DNA of 64,000 nt from Bacillota bacterium (GTDB taxonomy: Bacteria; Bacillota; Sulfobacillia; JAJYWN01; JAJZPE01), in NCBI GenBank assembly GCA_021787335.1, contig JAJYMC010000054.1, forward strand, positions 26,572 through 90,571. The letters are read 5' to 3'. This document shows, in pieces, positions 11,715 through 62,116 of the stretch. Position 1 is the first letter of the stretch. Each line of letters begins with the position of its first letter. A model generated the notes under the pieces. It worked only from the letters and a program-made list of their open reading frames with translations, was not told the origin of the DNA and did not search any database. The translations under genes and the position numbers were made by a program.

Positions 11715-11818
11715 ACGGCGAACAGTCGCGAAGGCTCAGGGCCAAAACATCAAGCCGGCTGGCTCTGCGCCAGCCGGCTTTTCGTCTTCTGAAACACCCG
11801 GTGTCGGCGCCCGCGAGG

Positions 11819-28207: not shown

Positions 28208-28244
28208 ATAGAAAACGAATCGCCGACCGGTTGACCGGTCGGCG
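28208..28244 (-). terminator. intrinsic terminator downstream of tRNA-Gly
   Basis: Perfect CGCCGACCGG/CCGGTCGGCG stem with loop TTGA, followed by ATTCGTTTTCTAT on the minus strand. Confidence 0.55.
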
Positions 28245-33140: not shown

Positions 33141-34256
33141 ATGAGTCAGTCCGCATCACTGTCGTCCAGCCCCGAATTGCAGGCCGCGTTGCGGCGGGCT
33201 GGTCCGGGTCAGGTTATCGGACTCGACGGCCTGGACACGAACGCTGGTCGGCGGTTGAACCTGGTGGTCAACGACGGCGGCCAATCCCTGCTCTTCTCGA
33301 ACGACCCCGAGAGCATCACTCAACCCAACCGCGTCCTTGCCCGGGAGCCGAGCTTGCCCCAGGGGGAGAACCGCGTCTTCTTCCATCATCAGAACGGGAC
33401 CCACCGCCCGCAACGGGTGGCCCTGGTGGCCCGCGGCGGTCCCGGCGGTTCCTGGGTGGCGGTGCGTCGAAGTGGTGTGGGCGGCCCGTGGAGCGACCCG
33501 CTCGTCGTCGGTCGGCGGGCCTTCTATCGTTGGTTGTCCGACAACCAGTACTATCCGGCCGTGCGTCTGGCTGAGGGCGAGGTCACGATACTAGATCCGT
33601 CCCTGGCCACGCTGACGGTCGACCAGGGGCAGACCATCGGGGGCATCATCGACATCGGCGTCTTCCCGGGAACCCCGGTCGAAGTGGCCGTCGTGGCCTG
33701 TGACCCGGAGGTGCCTATGGAGAAGGCTTACCCGTCGCTCTTGGCCCACCCGCGCAGCGGCAACGAGTTCGTCCGGGGAACCGCGAAGGCCTGTGACCGC
33801 CTGCTCGATATGGCCAATGACGGCATTCATGACGCGGCCTACGACACGTCCTGGGGGGTGGCCTACTATCGGGCCGGCGACGGCGTCGTCGACCCATTCT
33901 TGGCGGTGGCCGACAGGCTGACGCCTTCCGGAGACCCACAGCCGTTGGCCGGCAACTTCGGACTGCTCTATCGTTTCCATCTCTGGCTGACCGGGAGCGA
34001 CGGCCAGGCCGTGGCCTTGCTCGTCAACCCGTGCGGGACCGACTATGGTGGCGCCATCAAGGTGGCCCCCGGCCTTGACGGGGGCGGCGACGTCTACCTG
34101 CCCTGGTCCCCCGACTCGATCCGCGACCCATTCCAGGCCGTGCTGGCCGGGCGGTATCTGCCGCGAGCCGGCGTGAGCCTGTGGTTCCAGTTCATGATTC
34201 CGGGCGGCTCAAACGCCCCCATCAATCTGGTCTTGGTCCCGTACCACCCGGCCTGA
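33141..34256 (+). CDS. hypothetical protein (orphan, no recognisable domain)
   Basis: 371 aa with no signal peptide or TM helices. GGGAGGG RBS. The only plus-strand gene for about 20 kb. Confidence 0.5.
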   Translation: MSQSASLSSSPELQAALRRAGPGQVIGLDGLDTNAGRRLNLVVNDGGQSLLFSNDPESITQPNRVLAREPSLPQGENRVFFHHQNGTHRPQRVALVARGGPGGSWVAVRRSGVGGPWSDPLVVGRRAFYRWLSDNQYYPAVRLAEGEVTILDPSLATLTVDQGQTIGGIIDIGVFPGTPVEVAVVACDPEVPMEKAYPSLLAHPRSGNEFVRGTAKACDRLLDMANDGIHDAAYDTSWGVAYYRAGDGVVDPFLAVADRLTPSGDPQPLAGNFGLLYRFHLWLTGSDGQAVALLVNPCGTDYGGAIKVAPGLDGGGDVYLPWSPDSIRDPFQAVLAGRYLPRAGVSLWFQFMIPGGSNAPINLVLVPYHPA

Positions 34257-34273
34257 GCCGGGCTTCTTTTCTG

Positions 34274-34960
34274 TCATCCGGCCTTTCCGTCACCGACCGC
34301 TTCGGCCCACGGTTCCCGGACCAGAGCTGCCGGCCGAGGGCCTCTGCCGGCCAGAAAGCGCCCGAGGGCCGCGGCTTGCTCCAGGGCACCGGCTTTCAGC
34401 CTTATCTCCCCGCGGCTGTCCACGCCGGGGAAGTACAACCCGCCGGCGTACTTGAAGTCGTTGGTCCGGAAGAAGGCCCGTGCCTCGGCCACGACCCCGC
34501 GGAAGATCTCGGGGTTCCGGAGCCCGGACACGGCGATGGTCACCCCGAACCGACTCGGCGCGCCGGCGTCTGGCCGGTCCCGGCGGGTCGCGCCTCCATC
34601 GGGCGGGGTCTTGAGGCGGTATTTGCGGACCCAGACCGCCTGGCAGCGGTCGAACATCGCCTTGGTCTGGGAGGTGACCCCGCCGAAGAAAACCGGGGAA
34701 GCGACAACCACGCGGTCGGCCTCACGGAGCTTTGGGTAAAGCTCTTGCATGGCGTCGGCGACGATACACCGCCCGGTCCGGTCGCAGCCGCCGCACTCGC
34801 GGCACCCCTCGAAGGCGAGCCGCGCGAGGACGACCTTGTCGACCTCGGCTCCGCCGGCGGCCGCCGCCTCGAGGGCGGCGTCGAGTAGGAGCTCGGTGTT
34901 GCCGTGGCGGCGCGGGCTTCCTGAGAAGGCCAGTAGGCGCAGGGGGCGTCCGGCCGTCAA
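34274..34960 (-). CDS. iron-sulfur flavoprotein / NAD(P)H-dependent FMN reductase family
   Basis: 228 aa flavodoxin-like (LLAFSGSPRRHGNTELL) with a compact Cys cluster CRECGGCDRTGRC. Confidence 0.75.
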   Translation of the reverse strand: MTAGRPLRLLAFSGSPRRHGNTELLLDAALEAAAAGGAEVDKVVLARLAFEGCRECGGCDRTGRCIVADAMQELYPKLREADRVVVASPVFFGGVTSQTKAMFDRCQAVWVRKYRLKTPPDGGATRRDRPDAGAPSRFGVTIAVSGLRNPEIFRGVVAEARAFFRTNDFKYAGGLYFPGVDSRGEIRLKAGALEQAAALGRFLAGRGPRPAALVREPWAEAVGDGKAG

Positions 34961-35742
34961 GAAGCCTCACCCGCCTGGCTCTGACCGGCTTTGGCAGCCA
35001 CGAAGTAGATGCGGGCCGTCTCGTCCTCGGGAGGGTCAAAGCTGTAGGCACTGTAAGCACCGAGGAGTCGAAGCCTCGCTCGGGCGATGGCCGCGGTGAT
35101 CTCCTCGAGTGTGTAGGCCCTTTCCTTGTGGACCTCCTTGAACTGCCGGTACAGTTCTCCTTCAGAGCGGACGAAACCGGTCAGCTTGATCTGCCAGATT
35201 CGGTCCCTCTGATGGAACTGGTTCTCCCAGACCAGTGAGAAGCCGTCATCCTCGACGAACATGGTCGTGTCGGGAATATTGGATAAGCGGTAGGCTGAGT
35301 TGACGTCGAAGATGAACAGGCCGCCCGGACTGAGGGCCCCCTCCACATGCCGGCAGACCTCGACCAGTTCGTCAAGGTCCAGGACGTAGTTGACGCTGTC
35401 GTACAGGCATGTGACCAGGTCCACGGGACTCGCCACCGTGAAGTGGCGCATGTCGGCCTGGGTGAACGGAATGGACAAGCCGGCCTGCTCCGTCTTGCGT
35501 CGGGCAATGGCCAGCATCTCGGGTGACCGGTCGACCCCGGCCACGGCGTAGCCCCGCTGGGCGAAGGGTAGGGTCGTGTTGCCTGTGCCACAGGCGAGGT
35601 CGAGGACGGTCCGCGGTTTGGCCCCAAAGCGAGCGAGGAGTTGTTCTATGTAGTCGACCCAGAGGTCATAGCCGACGTCCTGCATCACGCGGTCATAAAG
35701 CCTGGCGAAGTAGGTGTAGGGTTCAGCGAATCTCATCTCCAC
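34957..35742 (-). CDS. class I SAM-dependent methyltransferase
   Basis: 261 aa with VLDLACGTGNTT motif I. 4-nt overlap with the downstream flavoprotein gene. Confidence 0.8.
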   Translation of the reverse strand: MEMRFAEPYTYFARLYDRVMQDVGYDLWVDYIEQLLARFGAKPRTVLDLACGTGNTTLPFAQRGYAVAGVDRSPEMLAIARRKTEQAGLSIPFTQADMRHFTVASPVDLVTCLYDSVNYVLDLDELVEVCRHVEGALSPGGLFIFDVNSAYRLSNIPDTTMFVEDDGFSLVWENQFHQRDRIWQIKLTGFVRSEGELYRQFKEVHKERAYTLEEITAAIARARLRLLGAYSAYSFDPPEDETARIYFVAAKAGQSQAGEAS

Positions 35743-35781
35743 GGCCGTGCCTCCCGTGTCCCCGGATGGCTCATACCAAGG

Positions 35782-37137
35782 TCAGGCCAATCGCCGCTCG
35801 TAGCGGAGCAGTCGCTGCTCGATTTCGAAGCCCAAGGCGGCTGCGCGGCTCAGGGCGTCGTGTCCACCGTCCGAGACCCTGGCCTGCAGCTCGCCGGTGT
35901 GCCGCCGGCCAGCCTCGCTGATGAGCAGGGCGAGCATGGCCTCGTATATCTCGCCGCCCATCTCTTCGGGGACGACCTCCGCGAGCCCGTGCCCCGCAGC
36001 CGACAGCCACCACAAGCCGACGGGGCTGTCTCCCCGAAGGACCAAGCTGAGTCGGGCGGTCCAGCCGCGGAAGAGTGGCGTGTCGTCGGCCCGGACGATG
36101 TCCATCGCCGTCAACCAGCCGTCGGCCGGTGTTCGAGCCAGTCGGCGGCCGAGGGCCGCGAGAAGATCGGCGTCTTCCAGGCCGGCGTAGGGGCGGACCT
36201 CGTAGCCCGGCGGCAGCGCGACCTCGCCCTGCCTCCCGAGTGGATGGACCATCTGCCAGTAGGGCCCCGCCGGTACGAAGCCGTGCTCGCTGAGGAAAGC
36301 CCCCTGGCTGACATTCTCCTCCGGCAGCGAAGTCTCGAGCCAGAGGGCCCCGCGGTCGCGGGCCATCGCGATGAGCGAATCCAAGAGCCGCCCGCCGACG
36401 CCCTGGCCGCGATAGCCCGGACGGACGAACGGTCCATAGACGGCAAGATGACCTGGCCGGTGCACCGAGCCGTCCGACACCAGGGCGCCGAAGCCGATGG
36501 GTTCTCCGGACCACTCAGCGATCAGCCCGTCGTCGAGGGGGCCGGCCCACCCCTCCGGAGTGAACTCGCGCAGTCGCAGGCGATCCTCCGGCCGCGGGCG
36601 CCGGAAGTCGACGTCCGCCATTGCCAGGTACAGGAGGACGGGGAGCTCCTCGGCCGAATCCCGTAGGTGAACAACCAGTTCGATGGCTTCGATGTCCTCC
36701 TGGCCGGCCCGGCGGCCTCGGCGGATGAGCTCCTCGGCGACGAGCCGGCTGATCGGTCGCCAGTAGTCTTTCCGGGAAAGGACGGTGTTCTCGGCCCCGC
36801 CCTCGAGACTCATGGCCAGTTCGGCGTGGACGACCGTGGCCGGCACCGCGCGTTGAGTGGCGACCTCCTCGAGCCGCCCGAGCATCCCCTGGATCTCCTT
36901 CAGAGTGTGCCCCCGTTCCTTGAGGAGGGCGATGAGGAAGAGTGTCTGGAGGACGTCTCGCGGGTAGAAGCCGCTGCGCCCGCCGGACGGCAGGTTCCTG
37001 ACCACGGCGTGTGGCAACAGGCCCTGTGAGGCATAGAGCCTCAGGGTCCGGTGGTTGATGTCGATGCCCTGCTGCCGGGCCATCTTGATGAACTGTTCGG
37101 TCGGAACCAACTGGGTGACCGGGTCGGAAGCGGCCAC
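35782..37137 (-). CDS. MerR-family HTH / GNAT acetyltransferase fusion protein
   Basis: MerR HTH (FIKMARQQGIDINHRTLRLYASQGLL) plus a C-terminal GNAT domain (RPGYRGQGVGGRLL). The track ORF starts at 37191, inside the -10 hexamer. The likely start is GTG at 37137, preceded by GGGGGT. Confidence 0.65.
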   Translation of the reverse strand: MAASDPVTQLVPTEQFIKMARQQGIDINHRTLRLYASQGLLPHAVVRNLPSGGRSGFYPRDVLQTLFLIALLKERGHTLKEIQGMLGRLEEVATQRAVPATVVHAELAMSLEGGAENTVLSRKDYWRPISRLVAEELIRRGRRAGQEDIEAIELVVHLRDSAEELPVLLYLAMADVDFRRPRPEDRLRLREFTPEGWAGPLDDGLIAEWSGEPIGFGALVSDGSVHRPGHLAVYGPFVRPGYRGQGVGGRLLDSLIAMARDRGALWLETSLPEENVSQGAFLSEHGFVPAGPYWQMVHPLGRQGEVALPPGYEVRPYAGLEDADLLAALGRRLARTPADGWLTAMDIVRADDTPLFRGWTARLSLVLRGDSPVGLWWLSAAGHGLAEVVPEEMGGEIYEAMLALLISEAGRRHTGELQARVSDGGHDALSRAAALGFEIEQRLLRYERRLA

Positions 37138-37189
37138 ACGACAGACCCCCAATGTGGAAGGGCAGGGAGATCCTGCCTGAATCAAGACC

Positions 37190-37219
37190 ATCGTACACCG
37201 GACAGTTGTCCGGTGTCAA
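37190..37219 (-). promoter_or_regulatory. MerR-type promoter TTGACA-18-TACGAT with 9-bp perfect inverted repeat CACCGGACA-ac-TGTCCGGTG in the spacer
   Basis: Minus-strand -35 at 37214-37219, -10 at 37190-37195, dyad at 37196-37215. Classic MerR operator placement. Confidence 0.6.
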
Positions 37220-37228
37220 ATGTATTGG

Positions 37229-37276
37229 GGCTGGGCGAGATACAAGAGGCCCCCGGCGCGCACGATGCGTGCTCCC
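37229..37276 (-). terminator. hairpin terminator downstream of dnaB
   Basis: GGCCCCCGG...CCGGGGGCC long GC stem with a short T-rich tail. Confidence 0.4.
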
Positions 37277-37329
37277 GGGGGCCCCGATAATCCCTATAAT
37301 ATGGTTCGGACAGGTGGACGCTAGATACC

Positions 37330-38667
37330 TCAGGCCGGCTTGCGGAACTTCTCGGGGTCGGCGAAACGCCCGATTTCCTTCATGAAGACCAGTTCGACCG
37401 AACCGGTCGGGCCGTTCCGCTGCTTGGCGACGATGATCTCGGCGACGTTCTTCTTCTCCGTATCGGGCTTGTAGTACTCCTCGCGGAAGATGAAGGCCAC
37501 CAGGTCGGCGTCCTGCTCGATGGCGCCGGACTCACGGAGGTCGGAGAGCATCGGCTTCTTGTCATCACGTTGCTCGACGGCCCGGCTGAGCTGCGAGCCG
37601 ATGATCACCGGGACCTTCAGTTCACGGGCCAGCGCTTTCAGCGACCGGGAGATCTCCGAGATCTCCTGTTGGCGGTTCTCCACCCGTCCCCGCGTCCGCA
37701 TGAGCTGGATGTAGTCGACGACGATGAGCCCGAGGTCATGCTCGGCCTTGATCCGGCGCGCTTTGGCCCTGAGCTCCATGACCGAGATCGAAGGGGTGTC
37801 GTCGATGAAGACCGGGGCGTCGCTCAGCCGACCCAGGGCGTGCGACAACCGAGGCCAGTCGGCATCCATCAGGTGGCCGGTACGCAGCCGCTGGCCGTCA
37901 ACGCCGGCTTCGGCGCAAAGAAGGCGCTGGGCCAGTTGTTCTTTGGACATCTCCAGGCTGAAAATGGCGACCGGGACCGACTTGGACAGCGCGGCGTTCC
38001 GAGCCATGTTCAGGAGCAGGGTGGTCTTGCCCATCGACGGGCGGGCGGCGATGACGATGAGGTCCGACGGCTGGAGACCCGAGGTCAGGGCGTCCAGACC
38101 CTTGAACCCCGTGGGCACGCCGGTGACCCCTTCCTTGTTGCTGTACAGGAACTCGATCCGTTCGAAGGCGTCCAGGAGGACGCCCCTGATGGCCGCGTAG
38201 CCTTCGGTCGACCGCCGCTGAGCGATCTCGAAGATGCGCCGCTCGGAGTCGTCGATCAATACGGCGACTTCCTCAGCGCCCTGATAACCCTTGGCGACGA
38301 TGTCCGTCGCCACCGTGATGAGCTCGCGAAGAAGGGCCTTCTCCTCGACGATGCGCGCATAGTACTCGGCGTTGGCCGCCGTGGGGACGGCGTTGGCGAG
38401 GGCCGTCAGATAGGCCACGCCGCCGATGTTCTCCAGGAGCCCCCGCTTCCTCAGCTCGTCGGTAACGGTGACGAGGTCGACGGCCTCCCCATGTTCGTGA
38501 AGGTTGACCACCGCCTGGAAGACCTCGCGGTTGGCCTCGCGGTAGAAGTCCTCCTGGTGGAGGATGTCGGCCGCCTTGATGAGCGCCTCGCGCTCGATGA
38601 GCATCGAACCGAGGACCGCCTGCTCGGCTTCGAGGTTCTGCGGCGGGACCCTCTCGAGGATGCTCAT
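37330..38667 (-). CDS. dnaB: replicative DNA helicase
   Basis: 445 aa. N-terminal PPQNLEAEQAVLGSML, Walker A GARPSMGKTT, RecA-like C-terminus. Confidence 0.95.
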   Translation of the reverse strand: MSILERVPPQNLEAEQAVLGSMLIEREALIKAADILHQEDFYREANREVFQAVVNLHEHGEAVDLVTVTDELRKRGLLENIGGVAYLTALANAVPTAANAEYYARIVEEKALLRELITVATDIVAKGYQGAEEVAVLIDDSERRIFEIAQRRSTEGYAAIRGVLLDAFERIEFLYSNKEGVTGVPTGFKGLDALTSGLQPSDLIVIAARPSMGKTTLLLNMARNAALSKSVPVAIFSLEMSKEQLAQRLLCAEAGVDGQRLRTGHLMDADWPRLSHALGRLSDAPVFIDDTPSISVMELRAKARRIKAEHDLGLIVVDYIQLMRTRGRVENRQQEISEISRSLKALARELKVPVIIGSQLSRAVEQRDDKKPMLSDLRESGAIEQDADLVAFIFREEYYKPDTEKKNVAEIIVAKQRNGPTGSVELVFMKEIGRFADPEKFRKPA

Positions 38668-38684: not shown

Positions 38685-40703
38685 CTACGAAGCGGACTTG
38701 CCGGTCGTGGTCGCGTTCCCGGCCAGCGCTAGCTGAAGGGCTTCTTCGGCGGTCTCGACCGCGATGACCTCGATGCCCTTGATGTCCACCGGGATGTCTT
38801 TGACGTTCTCCCTGGGAAGGATGATGCTCTTCATCCCGGCCTGCTTGGCGCCGTAGATCTTCTCGAACACGCCGCCGATGGCCCGGATGCGCCCCTGGAT
38901 GGAGAGTTCCCCGGTGATGGCCACATCCTGGCGGATGGGCACGCCCTCCATGGAGCTGTAGATGGCCAGGAAGATGGCCAGCCCGGCCGAGGGACCGTCG
39001 ATGTTGCCCCCGCCGATGGCGTTGACATGGAGGTCGAAGTCGGCCACTTCTTTGCCGGTCAGGCGCCTGATGACGGAGGCCGCGTTGAACACGGAATCCT
39101 TGGCCATCGACCCGGCGGTCTCGTTGAACCGGAAGGTCCCCTTGCCGGGGTCCCGCGCCGGGTAGACCATGGCCTCGACTTCGATGACCGAACCGAGGTA
39201 GCCATAGACGCCGAGTCCGAAGGCCTTCCCGATTTCCGGCCGGTCGCTGGCCTTCTGAGGGCTGTTCGGGAGCATCCGGCCGACCTGGATGACCTGCAGG
39301 ATGTGGTCGCGGGAGAGCCGGACGCGACTCGCACCGCGTTGCGGCTGGCCGTGGGGCGCCACTTCACGGCCCTCGGCCGTCGCGGCCACCTCGCGGCTGG
39401 CGTGGTGGGCGTTCTGGTAGAGCGCCAGCCCGTAGGCGTCGGCCAGGATGCCGATGGCCTTACGGCCTTCGATGGTGTACTCGCTGATGATATCGGGGAT
39501 GGCCCGGTCCAACCGGACCTTCAGTTTGCCCGCGGCGTTCTTGACGATGAGCTTGATGTCGCCCGGCCCGAGGGGATCGAAGAAGACTTCGGCGCAGCGG
39601 GAACGGATGGCCGGGCTGATGTCGGACGGGTCCCGGGTCGTCGCCCCGATGAGGACGAAGTCGGCCGGAGCGCCCTCTTCGAAGAGTTTCCTGACGTACT
39701 TGGGGACGTTCGGGTCATCGGGGTCGTAGTAGGACGAATCGAAACTGACCCGCTTGTCCTCGAGGACCTTCAGGAGCTTGGCCAGGAGCATCGGCTCGAG
39801 TTCACCGATCTCGTCGATGAAGAGGATGCCCCCGTGGGCCTCGGTGACCAGACCCAGCTTGGGCTCGGGGACACCGCCCTCGGCCAGCTCCCGTCGGGCC
39901 CCCTGGTAGATGGGATCGTGAACGGACCCGAGGAGGGGGTTGGTGACCTCCCTGGGATCCCAGCGCAGAGTGGTCCCATCGACTTCGATGAATGGCGCGT
40001 CCTTGGCGAAGGGGGAATGCTTGAGTCGCTTGGCCTCCTCCAGACAGAGGCGGGCGACGGTGGTCTTGCCGACGCCGGGCGGTCCGTAGAGGATGACATG
40101 CTGCGGGTAGGGCGAGGAGATCTTGGCCAAGAGGGCCTTGATCGCCCGGTCCTGCCCGACCACCTCGCCGAGGGTGGCCGGACGGATGACGTCGATGGCC
40201 GAGCGGGACAGCTGCTTATGCTCCAGCTTCTCGAGGATGGCGTACTTCTTGAGGGTCTGCGCGTTCTCAGGACCGCCGTCTTCCTTGGCGATCTGCATCT
40301 TGATGTCCCGGATGTACTCCTCGTGACGTTGCTGCATGCGCTCGGCGATCTTCCGCTCGACCTTGTCCTCGACGGTCTTCCGGGCGATGATGTCGGCGAT
40401 CTCGTCCTCGATGCCGTCGAGCACCGATGACACGTCGCTCAGATTGGGCGGCCCTTCTATGGTCGGGTCTTCATACACTACCTTCTGGAGCGCCAGGACC
40501 TGCTGCCCGAGGTCGTCCGAGCGCATGCCTTCCAACGCTTCGAGCTTGCCCGCCCGAAGGACCAGCTTGTCCGCCCCGTAGATGTCTGACAGCAGCCCGA
40601 AAAGGGCGCTGACCTGACGGCGCAGCATGTCCTCCTCGCTGAGCTTGCCTTCCACGCCGGCCCGGGGATTGCTCCGGACCAACCTGTCAAGAAACGGCTT
40701 CAA
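38685..40703 (-). CDS. Lon-like ATP-dependent protease, sporulation LonC/LonB type (AAA+ plus S16 domain)
   Basis: 672 aa. Walker A GPPGVGKTT. S16 catalytic region DGPSAG...EKIYGAK. Confidence 0.85.
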   Translation of the reverse strand: MKPFLDRLVRSNPRAGVEGKLSEEDMLRRQVSALFGLLSDIYGADKLVLRAGKLEALEGMRSDDLGQQVLALQKVVYEDPTIEGPPNLSDVSSVLDGIEDEIADIIARKTVEDKVERKIAERMQQRHEEYIRDIKMQIAKEDGGPENAQTLKKYAILEKLEHKQLSRSAIDVIRPATLGEVVGQDRAIKALLAKISSPYPQHVILYGPPGVGKTTVARLCLEEAKRLKHSPFAKDAPFIEVDGTTLRWDPREVTNPLLGSVHDPIYQGARRELAEGGVPEPKLGLVTEAHGGILFIDEIGELEPMLLAKLLKVLEDKRVSFDSSYYDPDDPNVPKYVRKLFEEGAPADFVLIGATTRDPSDISPAIRSRCAEVFFDPLGPGDIKLIVKNAAGKLKVRLDRAIPDIISEYTIEGRKAIGILADAYGLALYQNAHHASREVAATAEGREVAPHGQPQRGASRVRLSRDHILQVIQVGRMLPNSPQKASDRPEIGKAFGLGVYGYLGSVIEVEAMVYPARDPGKGTFRFNETAGSMAKDSVFNAASVIRRLTGKEVADFDLHVNAIGGGNIDGPSAGLAIFLAIYSSMEGVPIRQDVAITGELSIQGRIRAIGGVFEKIYGAKQAGMKSIILPRENVKDIPVDIKGIEVIAVETAEEALQLALAGNATTTGKSAS

Positions 40704-45443: not shown

Positions 45444-45566
45444 GGCGACCCTCATGCTGGCCTCATTCGCGGCTCGGCTGGCCGTTCCGATGGTAATGCG
45501 AAGCCGCTCGGCGACGAGGCCGAGCGGCTTTCCACGCGGTCTGAAAACGGCATCGGGGGTGACCGG

Positions 45567-62000: not shown

Positions 62001-62083
62001 CCAGCTCCGCCTGAACCAGGGATTTTTGGAGAAGGCGGTACGGTTTCAGCGTGGCCAGGAGATTCAAGGTTCCGAGAAAACCA

Positions 62084-62116
62084 GGGAGCCGGTCATCGAC
62101 CGGCTCCCTCAATTTG
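62084..62116 (+). terminator. intrinsic terminator of larBC
   Basis: Perfect 11-bp stem GGGAGCCGGTC/GACCGGCTCCC with 3-nt loop, followed by TCAATTTG. Confidence 0.6.

What the first reader, a model, noticed from the sequence alone, without database searches (positions are those of the whole stretch)
35782..37219. MerR-HTH/GNAT fusion with a textbook MerR operator in its own promoter spacer
The minus-strand promoter TTGACA-18-TACGAT has a perfect 9-bp inverted repeat (CACCGGACA ac TGTCCGGTG) in the spacer. MerR-family activators bind exactly here and remodel over-long spacers. The regulated gene encodes a MerR N-terminal HTH fused to a GNAT acetyltransferase domain, so the ligand sensor and an acetylating enzyme are one polypeptide. 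It probably heads an operon with a SAM methyltransferase and an iron-sulfur flavoprotein. The ATG annotated by the ORF track (37191) lies inside the -10 hexamer, so the real start must be downstream. A GTG at 37137 with GGGGGT is proposed.
Basis: seen in the sequence. Interest (0 to 1): 0.55.

Follow-up and report, generated by a model that had tools for sequence, protein, structure and literature searches.

The report
Self-regulating MerR-type regulator fused to acetyltransferase
A rare, uncharacterised bacterial protein joins a MerR-type DNA-binding head to a double acetyltransferase body, and a conserved symmetric DNA site sits inside its own promoter, so it very probably controls its own small operon, but the promoter spacing is not the over-long kind that textbook MerR activators remodel.

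Summary
On the minus strand, TTGACA (37219-37214), an 18-bp spacer and TACGAT (37195-37190) enclose a perfect 10-2-10 inverted repeat (37195-37216). It is unique in the window.

These comprise a MerR-type winged helix-turn-helix, a family-specific helical linker and a tandem GNAT fold, not a single GNAT.

Orthologues occur in only five distinct metagenomic Bacillota loci. All five keep TTGACA-18-TAC(G/C)AT and a 22-bp dyad, ACACNNGNCA-N2-TGNCNNGTGT. Two distant family members (about 30% identity, heading ABC-2 exporter operons) have the same layout of TTGACA, an 18-bp spacer and an ACA(C)...GTGT dyad.

Autoregulation from a spacer operator is therefore well supported comparatively.

- An 18-bp spacer lies within the normal 17±1 range. 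It is not the 19-20 bp that defines classical MerR activation.
- No long dimerisation helix is evident in the model.
- The iron-sulfur flavoprotein gene is absent in the closest relative.

I read this as a new variant of a known kind: a MerR-like one-component switch whose effector module is an acetyl-CoA-dependent enzyme fold. Ligand, sign of regulation and catalysis are untested.

The parts
37214..37219 (-). -35 hexamer TTGACA (perfect consensus)
   Evidence: Invariant in all 7 family promoters compared.
37195..37216 (.). 22-bp dyad operator, ACACCGGACA-AC-TGTCCGGTGT on the minus strand. It runs from base 4 of the -35 to base 1 of the -10, with its centre at about -22.5.
   Evidence: Perfect 10-nt arms. 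Unique in the window. The motif ACACNNGNCANNTGNCNNGTGT occurs once per orthologous locus, always upstream of the gene. Dyad symmetry is kept across 7 promoters: 87% of cells complementary, against 24-41% in shifted registers.
37190..37195 (-). -10 hexamer TACGAT. The 18-bp spacer is 37196-37213.
   Evidence: TAC(G/C)AT and the 18-bp spacing are invariant in the 5 orthologous loci. Distant members have TATAGT and TAGACT, also at 18 bp.
37138..37183 (-). Inferred 5' UTR of about 46 nt. The transcription start near 37183 is inferred from the -10 position and was not measured. The region contains the Shine-Dalgarno-like GGGGGT at 37150-37145.
   Evidence: Sequence. Indels in orthologues (a 22-nt insertion in L003, a 1-nt deletion in L001) break the frame of the ATG-37191 ORF. 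No Rfam match. The RNA fold is no better than shuffles, z = -0.1.
35782..37137 (-). Coding sequence of the MerR-HTH/tandem-GNAT protein, 451 aa, GTG start, stop codon included
   Evidence: Homologues P0001, P0003 and P0004 start at the aligned position. GTG is invariant and a GGAGG-like site precedes it in all five loci.
36916..37101 (-). MerR-type winged helix-turn-helix (residues 13-74 of the 451-aa protein)
36625..36903 (-). Family-specific linker: helices 79-96, 100-115 and 123-139, and a beta hairpin at 151-171
   Evidence: AlphaFold models. A conserved Pro interrupts the helix after residue 96. No Pfam match.
36241..36609 (-). GNAT domain 1 (residues 177-299). It carries the acetyl-CoA loop RGQGVG.
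   Evidence: Pfam Acetyltransf_1, E = 8.8e-14. V238 and P240 are invariant and G246 nearly so across the family. Fold match to tandem GNATs.
35791..36204 (-). GNAT domain 2 (residues 312-449). It has the GNAT fold but a degenerate acetyl-CoA loop (PEEMGGEIY).
   Evidence: AlphaFold model. Foldseek matches span both halves of VipF, 3tt2, MAB_4324 and MshD, E = 1e-14 to 1e-11. No Pfam hit for this half. The loop was read from the sequence.
34957..35742 (-). Class I SAM-dependent methyltransferase, 39 nt downstream of the regulator gene; probable second gene of the operon
   Evidence: Pfam Methyltransf_25, E = 5.7e-21. No NCBIfam family reaches its cut-off. It follows the regulator in all five orthologous loci, overlapping it by 11 nt in L004.
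34274..34960 (-). Flavoprotein of the FMN_red family with a CxxCxxCx5C motif (iron-sulfur-flavoprotein-like). It overlaps the end of the methyltransferase gene by 4 nt.
   Evidence: Pfam FMN_red, E = 2.8e-21. The Cys motif was read from the translation. Present in L001-L005 but absent in L006.
37248..37283 (-). GC-rich hairpin GGCCCCCGG-N18-CCGGGGGCC after dnaB; a likely dnaB terminator that separates the transcription units
   Evidence: The stem is conserved in 4 of the 5 orthologous intergenic regions. The terminator scan did not call it because the T-tract is weak.

Best explanation
The gene encodes a one-component regulator. A MerR-type winged-helix head is joined, through a family-specific helical linker, to a tandem-GNAT (acetyl-CoA-dependent acyltransferase) body.

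I propose that two heads of a dimer bind the 22-bp dyad that fills the -35/-10 spacer of the gene's own promoter. The protein would thereby autoregulate a small operon: itself, a SAM methyltransferase and, in most relatives, an iron-sulfur flavoprotein.

The promoter has a consensus -35 and an 18-bp spacer, so it should be intrinsically active. The unliganded protein would then mainly hold it down. Binding of a small molecule (substrate and/or acetyl-CoA) in the GNAT module would change head spacing or occupancy, giving derepression, possibly with a mild MerR-style under-twisting towards 17-bp geometry.

If the inducer is also the acetylation substrate, catalysis would clear the signal and reset the switch.

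Shown: the promoter and dyad, their conservation, the domain folds and the gene order.
Inferred: DNA binding by this protein, dimerisation, the sign of regulation, the ligand and catalysis.
For: - Promoter and perfect dyad.
- The five distinct orthologous loci keep TTGACA, the 18-bp spacing, TAC(G/C)AT and the dyad core, while the rest of the intergenic region diverges.
- The dyad motif occurs once per locus, only upstream of this gene.
- Two distant family members, P0006 and P0007 (25% and 28% overall identity), sit in unrelated contexts and have TTGACA-18-TAGACT and TTGACA-18-TATAGT. L014 carries the ACAC...GTGT dyad with 9 of 11 arm positions complementary; L013 carries a weaker ACAG...GTGT version with 6 of 10.
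- Symmetry is maintained through changes on both arms: 87% of cells complementary against 24-41% in shifted registers, and a covariation score above all 500 shuffles.
- The MerR-type head is supported by sequence and fold.
- The tandem GNAT has its acetyl-CoA loop conserved in domain 1.
- Operon-like packing is conserved.
- Literature: MerR regulators bind dyads in the spacer and both repress and activate from that one site (PMC9909328, PMC8113463).
- Literature: 18-bp Pmer derivatives are strong constitutive promoters (PMC11049809).
Against: - There are no experimental data of any kind: no transcription start, no binding assay.
- The spacer is 18 bp, not 19-20 bp, so the defining geometry of MerR activation is absent.
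- The long antiparallel dimerisation helix is not evident in the monomer models, where the helix breaks at a conserved Pro after residue 96.
- Five other family loci show no comparable promoter or dyad: L009, L011, L012, L015 and L017. L016 has a different palindrome.
- Part of the conserved GTG just before the -10 could reflect a sigma contact at -13G rather than regulator contact (PMC11049809).
- The tyrosine in the conserved FYxxxGF stretch near the end of the GNAT fold, which often serves as general acid, is Leu in GNAT1. This is my own reading.
- The comparison rests on few, related, metagenome-derived sequences.
Confidence: 0.55

Rival explanations
1. Classical MerR activator. The promoter is weak on its own, and the liganded protein activates it by kinking and under-twisting the spacer, exactly as MerR, CueR, BmrR and EcmrR do.
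For: The dyad has the same placement and length as CueR/BmrR-type operators. That comparison is from my own knowledge; the general rule is in PMC9909328. The 18-bp spacing is fixed in 7 of 7 promoters, one base longer than the optimum. The head is of MerR type.
Against: 18 bp is within the 17±1 optimum. Shortening Pmer to 18 bp gives strong constitutive activity that is almost insensitive to MerR (PMC11049809, PMC9909328). No long coiled-coil helix is evident.
Confidence: 0.15
2. The GNAT module is a sensor only. It reads acetyl-CoA/CoA or an acyl-CoA and reports metabolic state, or it auto-acetylates the head, without detoxifying any small molecule. The operon partners are incidental.
For: Gene neighbours differ widely among family members: methyltransferases, ABC-2 exporters, a radical-SAM/peptide cluster, groESL. 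The GNAT architecture stays constant. GNAT2 has lost the acetyl-CoA loop, and GNAT1 has Leu at the usual catalytic Tyr position.
Against: The acetyl-CoA pyrophosphate loop and the beta4 residues of GNAT1 are conserved as in active enzymes. Many GNATs work without that Tyr (own knowledge). Heading exporter operons fits a xenobiotic response.
Confidence: 0.15
3. The dyad is the site of a different regulator, or the MerR-like head binds protein rather than DNA, as CbpM and DafA do. The fusion protein would then not be the operator's ligand.
Confidence: 0.1
4. The palindrome is an RNA or DNA hairpin (a terminator or attenuator for dnaB read-through), or a chance repeat with no function.
For: Eleven perfect short-gap repeats occur in the window, more than a simple simulation gives. 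Most are probably terminators.
Against: It lies between the -35 and -10, upstream of the inferred start. It has a 2-nt loop and no T-tract. A separate GC-rich hairpin already follows dnaB. In three of the orthologues the arms have two non-complementary positions, which a hairpin would not tolerate as easily as a protein site. There is no Rfam match.
Confidence: 0.03

Closest known systems
Multidrug-type MerR regulators with large C-terminal ligand domains (BmrR, EcmrR, TipAL, AlbA)
   Same: They share the MerR winged-helix head and a large C-terminal effector module. The dyad operator fills the -35/-10 spacer of the regulated promoter (PMC9909328, PMC8113463). TipAL and AlbA regulate their own gene, and their ligand domain itself neutralises the drug (AlbA: bioRxiv 10.64898/2026.09.21.753095, abstract; TipAL from my own knowledge).
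   Different: The effector module here is a tandem GNAT enzyme fold, not a GyrI-like or TipAS-like binding domain. The spacer is 18 bp, not 19-20 bp. No long coiled-coil helix is evident. There is no conserved internal start for a short isoform (read).
TnrA / GlnR (minimal MerR-family regulators of Bacillota)
   Different: TnrA and GlnR are about 80-130 aa and are controlled by glutamine synthetase. Their sites (TGTNA-N7-TNACA) are not confined to the promoter spacer (own knowledge). The protein here carries about 370 further residues.
Tandem-GNAT enzymes (mycothiol synthase MshD, Legionella VipF, M. abscessus MAB_4324, the clavulanate-pathway tandem GNAT, Sphaerobacter 3tt2)
   Same: Two GNAT folds in one chain. 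Foldseek E = 8.5e-15 to 1.6e-11 over about 300 aligned columns.
   Different: Sequence identity is 16-20%. The MshD equivalog model scores 21.7 bits against a cut-off of 163.1. Here the N-terminal GNAT keeps the acetyl-CoA loop and the C-terminal one is degenerate, whereas in MshD the C-terminal domain is the catalytic one (own knowledge). None of these enzymes has a DNA-binding head.
BltR-blt-bltD of Bacillus subtilis, and the MarR-GNAT proteins annotated 'bifunctional HTH regulator/GNAT' (both from my own knowledge, not tested here)
   Same: BltR is a MerR regulator that controls an operon containing a GNAT acetyltransferase. In the MarR-GNAT proteins a DNA-binding domain is fused to a GNAT.
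   Different: In blt the regulator and the GNAT are separate proteins. MarR-GNAT fusions use a different DNA-binding family. No characterised MerR-GNAT fusion turned up in the paper searches.

Membership tests
MerR family of transcriptional regulators | N-terminal winged helix-turn-helix of the MerR type | tested here: met
   [not shown]
MerR family of transcriptional regulators | Central long dimerisation helix forming an antiparallel coiled coil (PMC9909328) | tested here: inconclusive
   [not shown]
MerR family of transcriptional regulators | C-terminal ligand-binding domain | not testable with these tools
   A large C-terminal module exists, the tandem GNAT. Whether it receives the signal cannot be computed.
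MerR family of transcriptional regulators | [quoted passage not shown] | tested here: met
   The 22-bp dyad runs from base 4 of the -35 to base 1 of the -10. It is conserved in 5 orthologous and 2 distant loci. Binding by this protein is inferred.
MerR family of transcriptional regulators | Abnormally long 19-20 bp spacer, required for activation by distortion (PMC9909328, PMC8113463) | tested here: not met
   The spacer is 18 bp in the window and in all six other family promoters found.
MerR family of transcriptional regulators | Repressor-to-activator switch by DNA under-twisting on ligand binding | not testable with these tools
   This needs in vitro transcription, footprinting or structures.
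GNAT superfamily (tandem-GNAT architecture) | GNAT fold, present twice in one chain | tested here: met
   AlphaFold model with mean pLDDT 83.6. Foldseek matches to VipF, 3tt2, MAB_4324, MshD and others at E down to 8.5e-15. Pfam Acetyltransf_1 for the first half.
GNAT superfamily (tandem-GNAT architecture) | Acetyl-CoA pyrophosphate-binding loop R/Q-x-x-G-x-G/A | tested here: met
   GNAT1 has RGQGVG, with V238 and P240 invariant and G246 nearly invariant in the family. GNAT2 has a degenerate loop, EEMGGE.
GNAT superfamily (tandem-GNAT architecture) | Acyl-transfer activity on a defined acceptor | not testable with these tools
   No substrate can be inferred. Neighbouring genes differ among family members.
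Mycothiol synthase MshD (TIGR03448) | Score above the equivalog cut-off | tested here: not met
   21.7 bits against a cut-off of 163.1.
TipAL/AlbA-type self-regulated, drug-neutralising MerR proteins | TipAS-like ligand-binding domain and a short isoform made from an internal start | tested here: not met
   There is no TipAS-type Pfam hit. The only internal Met near the domain border is not conserved in the orthologues. The resemblance is functional only.

The most novel reading that the evidence does not exclude
A 'catalytic' MerR switch. The tandem-GNAT body would be both the ligand sensor and the enzyme that acetylates that ligand, so substrate binding turns the operon on and turnover turns it off. 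The design is built for an 18-bp rather than a 19-20-bp spacer and dimerises without the classical coiled coil. That would make it a distinct mechanistic branch of the MerR family, one that in other members drives ABC-2 exporters and a radical-SAM peptide cluster.
Probability: 0.2. Interest if true: 0.7.

Novelty: new variant of a known kind. Interest (0 to 1): 0.45.

Why it matters
MerR regulators are the model for transcription control by DNA distortion. Their known effector modules are metal loops, redox clusters and drug-binding pockets (PMC9909328).

A MerR head wired to an acetyl-CoA-dependent enzyme fold would add an enzyme-coupled variant. Its fixed 18-bp spacer operator would also test how much of the mechanism depends on the 19-20 bp geometry and on the coiled coil.

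In practical terms it offers a compact promoter, operator and regulator cassette whose inducer could be found by screening. It also corrects database records that call these proteins simply 'GNAT family N-acetyltransferase'.

The family is tiny and known only from metagenomes, so its wider biological impact is probably modest.

Tried and rejected
- **N-terminal extension from ATG 37191:** rejected. Homologues start at the GTG, and indels upstream break the frame. The longer P0002 call uses a different frame, made possible by a 1-nt deletion.
- **Riboswitch or leader RNA in the 5' UTR:** no Rfam match, and the fold is no better than shuffles.
- **Palindrome as the dnaB terminator:** rejected. 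A separate hairpin exists upstream, and the palindrome has no T-tract.
- **Further copies of the operator in the window:** none, even with 2-3 mismatches. No wider regulon is visible here.
- **Curated family assignment:** nothing in NCBIfam reaches its cut-off.
- **Plasmid collection (tblastn):** only GNAT-domain fragments.
- **Species-representative genomes and JGI metagenome contigs:** one further locus each, both duplicates of known variants.
- **Second word-indexed protein search, with the family profile:** one further protein, P0154.
- **AlphaFold-database fold search:** unavailable.
- **Literature:** searches for a MerR-GNAT fusion or an 18-bp MerR spacer found nothing relevant.
- **Strict compensatory covariation in the dyad among the five close orthologues:** positions 6 and 8 of the half-site vary without always matching. 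The perfect repeat in the window is therefore a special case of an 8-10/10 dyad.
- **Other family promoters:** L009, L011, L012, L015 and L017 show no comparable dyad.
Full report
**Observation.** Read on the minus strand, the window has TTGACA at 37219-37214, the 18-nt spacer CCGGACAACTGTCCGGTG, and TACGAT at 37195-37190. The consensus scan reports this as the only sigma-70-like site in 34000-38000, with 10 of 12 matches and 0.2 expected from shuffles.

The inverted repeat has 10-nt arms, ACACCGGACA and TGTCCGGTGT, at 37195-37204 and 37207-37216. They are fully complementary with 2 nt between them. The 22-bp dyad therefore runs from the fourth base of the -35 to the first base of the -10. Its centre lies near -22.5 if transcription starts about 7 nt after the -10, which is an inference.

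The dyad is unique in the window even with three mismatches, with none in 100 shuffles. Perfect short-gap repeats are not rare here: 11 distinct ones have arms of at least 9 nt, more than a first-order simulation gives. The argument therefore rests on position and conservation, not on the repeat alone.

**Gene start.** The ATG at 37191 is formed by the last two bases of the -10 plus G. Three of the four database homologues start at the position aligned with GTG 37137. In the DNA alignment of five orthologous intergenic regions that GTG is invariant and is preceded by GGAGG-like sites. The stretch between the -10 and the GTG carries a 22-nt insertion in L003 and a 1-nt deletion in L001, which break the longer frame.

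**The protein.**
- Pfam gives MerR_1 and Acetyltransf_1 above their cut-offs.
- A family alignment produced a confident AlphaFold model, with mean pLDDT 83.6 and pTM 0.74.
- The model shows a winged helix-turn-helix at 13-74; helices at 79-96, 100-115 and 123-139; a beta hairpin at 151-171; and two GNAT folds at 177-299 and 312-449.
- Foldseek against solved structures finds tandem-GNAT enzymes: VipF, Sphaerobacter 3tt2, MAB_4324, the clavulanate-pathway protein and MshD, at E = 8.5e-15 to 1.6e-11.
- A profile of the N-terminal region finds Bacillus MerR at E = 1.8e-9 in PDB sequences.
- GNAT1 carries the acetyl-CoA loop RGQGVG, with family-wide invariant Val and Pro and a nearly invariant Gly. 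GNAT2 has a degenerate loop.
- The helix that follows the head is interrupted by a conserved proline. No Pfam MerR-DNA-bind hit is found. The classical long dimerisation helix is therefore not evident, though a monomer model cannot settle this.
- No NCBIfam model reaches its cut-off; MshD scores 21.7 bits against 163.1.

**Distribution.** A search of 5.8 billion proteins found four relatives, at 90, 80, 68 and 60% identity. The exhaustive search of 1.84 billion cluster representatives found 14 proteins at E ≤ 1e-10. About a dozen of these, 430-530 aa long, share the whole architecture. All come from metagenomes or metagenome-assembled genomes of Bacillota. The names given by sources are 'GNAT family N-acetyltransferase' and, once in IMG, 'GNAT superfamily N-acetyltransferase/DNA-binding transcriptional MerR regulator'. 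I found no paper on such a fusion.

**Operator conservation among orthologues.** The orthologous loci share the gene order L9, LonC-type protease, DnaB, this gene, methyltransferase, flavoprotein, a convergent unknown gene, an FAD protein and purA. Their intergenic regions diverge, with 51% mean column identity. They still keep ATTTGACAC...GGTGTAC(G/C)ATG with an 18-bp spacer in all five distinct variants.

| Locus | Left arm | Centre | Right arm |
|---|---|---|---|
| window | ACACCGGACA | AC | TGTCCGGTGT |
| L006 | ACACCGGACA | AA | TGGCTGGTGT |
| L001/L007 | ACACCAGACA | GG | TGGCGGGTGT |
| L003/L008 | ACACCAGCCA | TA | TGGCTGGTGT |
| L004/L005 | ACACATGACA | GT | TGTCGGGTGT |

L003/L008 is again a perfect repeat, but with a different sequence. 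The motif ACACNNGNCANNTGNCNNGTGT occurs exactly once in each orthologous locus, always before this gene. It occurs nowhere else in the window, even with two mismatches.

**Operator conservation in distant members.** Two distant members head operons for an ABC ATPase and two ABC-2 permeases, in unrelated surroundings. Their promoters have the same design.
- L014: TTGACA-CATTCCAATTGGGAAGTG-TATAGT, with 11 of 12 consensus matches, an 18-bp spacer and the dyad ACACATTCCAA/TTGGGAAGTGT.
- L013: TTGACA-GTAACATACTGGCTAGTG-TAGACT, also with an 18-bp spacer. Its dyad is weaker: the left arm begins ACAG, and 6 of 10 arm positions are complementary.

Across the seven promoters, 87% of arm cells are complementary, against 24-41% when the register is shifted. 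Four arm positions change on both sides, and the covariation score exceeds all 500 shuffles. Three caveats apply: there are only seven related sequences, G-T counts as a pair in that tool, and the outer ACA is also part of the -35.

Five other family loci show nothing comparable, and L016 has a different palindrome, TGTCACGTGACA.

**Operon.** The methyltransferase starts 39 nt after the regulator's stop. The flavoprotein overlaps the methyltransferase by 4 nt. No other promoter-like site lies between them. In L004 the first two genes overlap by 11 nt.

The flavoprotein carries CxxCxxCx5C. I recognise this from my own knowledge as the compact motif of iron-sulfur flavoproteins; Pfam only says FMN_red. 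This gene is absent in L006, the closest relative, so the constant pair is regulator plus methyltransferase.

P0005 is also followed by a methyltransferase, but of a different Pfam family. P0011 has a related methyltransferase next to purA that is separated from the regulator. Part of this linkage may therefore be inherited synteny rather than function.

**Mechanism.** The MerR literature states three relevant points.
- Family members have a DNA-binding domain, a central dimerisation helix and a C-terminal ligand domain.
- They bind dyads in promoters with abnormally long 19-20 bp spacers, the optimum being 17±1.
- Shortening the spacer abolishes activation (PMC9909328, PMC8113463).

For Pmer, 18- and 17-bp derivatives are strong constitutive promoters almost unaffected by MerR, and -13G contributes to their activity (PMC11049809).

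The promoter here has a consensus -35, an 18-bp spacer and G at -13. I therefore expect it to be active on its own. I expect the unliganded regulator mainly to repress it. Ligand binding in the GNAT module would relieve repression, possibly with a one-base-equivalent under-twist.

The fixed 18-bp length in three separate clades suggests that the length matters, but this cannot be tested here. The 'over-long spacer' part does not.

**Comparison with known systems and novelty.** In working principle the closest systems are the multidrug MerR regulators with large ligand domains. TipAL and AlbA in particular regulate their own gene, and their ligand domain itself neutralises the drug. The head is closest in structure to TnrA and GlnR, and the body to the tandem GNATs.

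As to membership, the protein meets the MerR criteria for head and operator position. It fails the spacer-length criterion and is inconclusive for the dimerisation helix.

I class it as a new variant of a known kind. It is not categorically new, because MerR heads with varied C-terminal modules and HTH-GNAT fusions in other families are familiar (the latter from my own knowledge).

Interest is moderate. The comparative evidence makes a clear, cheap set of experiments possible. However, the family is very small, function and ligand are unknown, and nothing here overturns current understanding.

Noticed in passing
window 33141-34256 (+): A 371-aa ORF convergent with the operon has no Pfam or NCBIfam match. 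A gene of 371-381 aa with no Pfam hit sits at the same place in L001, L002, L004, L005 and L006, but not in L003. It is a conserved protein of unknown function.
   Followed up: partly
L006 1803-2720: In the closest relative (90% identical regulator) the flavoprotein gene is missing. The methyltransferase ORF runs on to 305 aa and overlaps the convergent gene. This looks like a recent deletion.
   Followed up: partly
L013 5021-7115 and L014 4976-7778: The distant family members P0006 and P0007 are followed, with 4-nt overlaps, by an ABC ATPase and two ABC2_membrane_6 permeases. In these clades the regulator heads an exporter operon.
   Followed up: partly
L015 181-5468: Family member P0008, from a low-GC organism, sits among small ORFs (51, 92 and 36 aa), a radical-SAM enzyme and an ABC transporter. 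This resembles a modified-peptide cluster. Its promoter is TTGACA-16-TATAAT with no dyad.
   Followed up: no
[not shown]
   Followed up: no
L016 3434-3445: A perfect 12-bp palindrome, TGTCACGTGACA, lies about 60 nt upstream of family member P0010 with no recognisable -35/-10 around it.
   Followed up: no
window 38685-40703 (-): The gene upstream of dnaB matches the sporulation-type LonC protease equivalog at 982.6 bits against a cut-off of 678.8. With the L9-LonC-DnaB...purA order and 65.5% G+C, this points to a high-GC, probably spore-forming Bacillota lineage.
   Followed up: partly
window 28221-28244; 11752-11780; 45501-45530; 62083-62109: Other perfect inverted repeats with 11-12-nt arms and short loops. 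One example is CGCCGACCGGT-TG-ACCGGTCGGCG. They are probably terminators or other protein sites.
   Followed up: no
window 37171-37177 and 37161-37166 (-): A small hairpin, GGCAGG-N5-CCTGCC, lies in the inferred 5' UTR. It is partly conserved in L006 and L001 and is not statistically unusual.
   Followed up: partly
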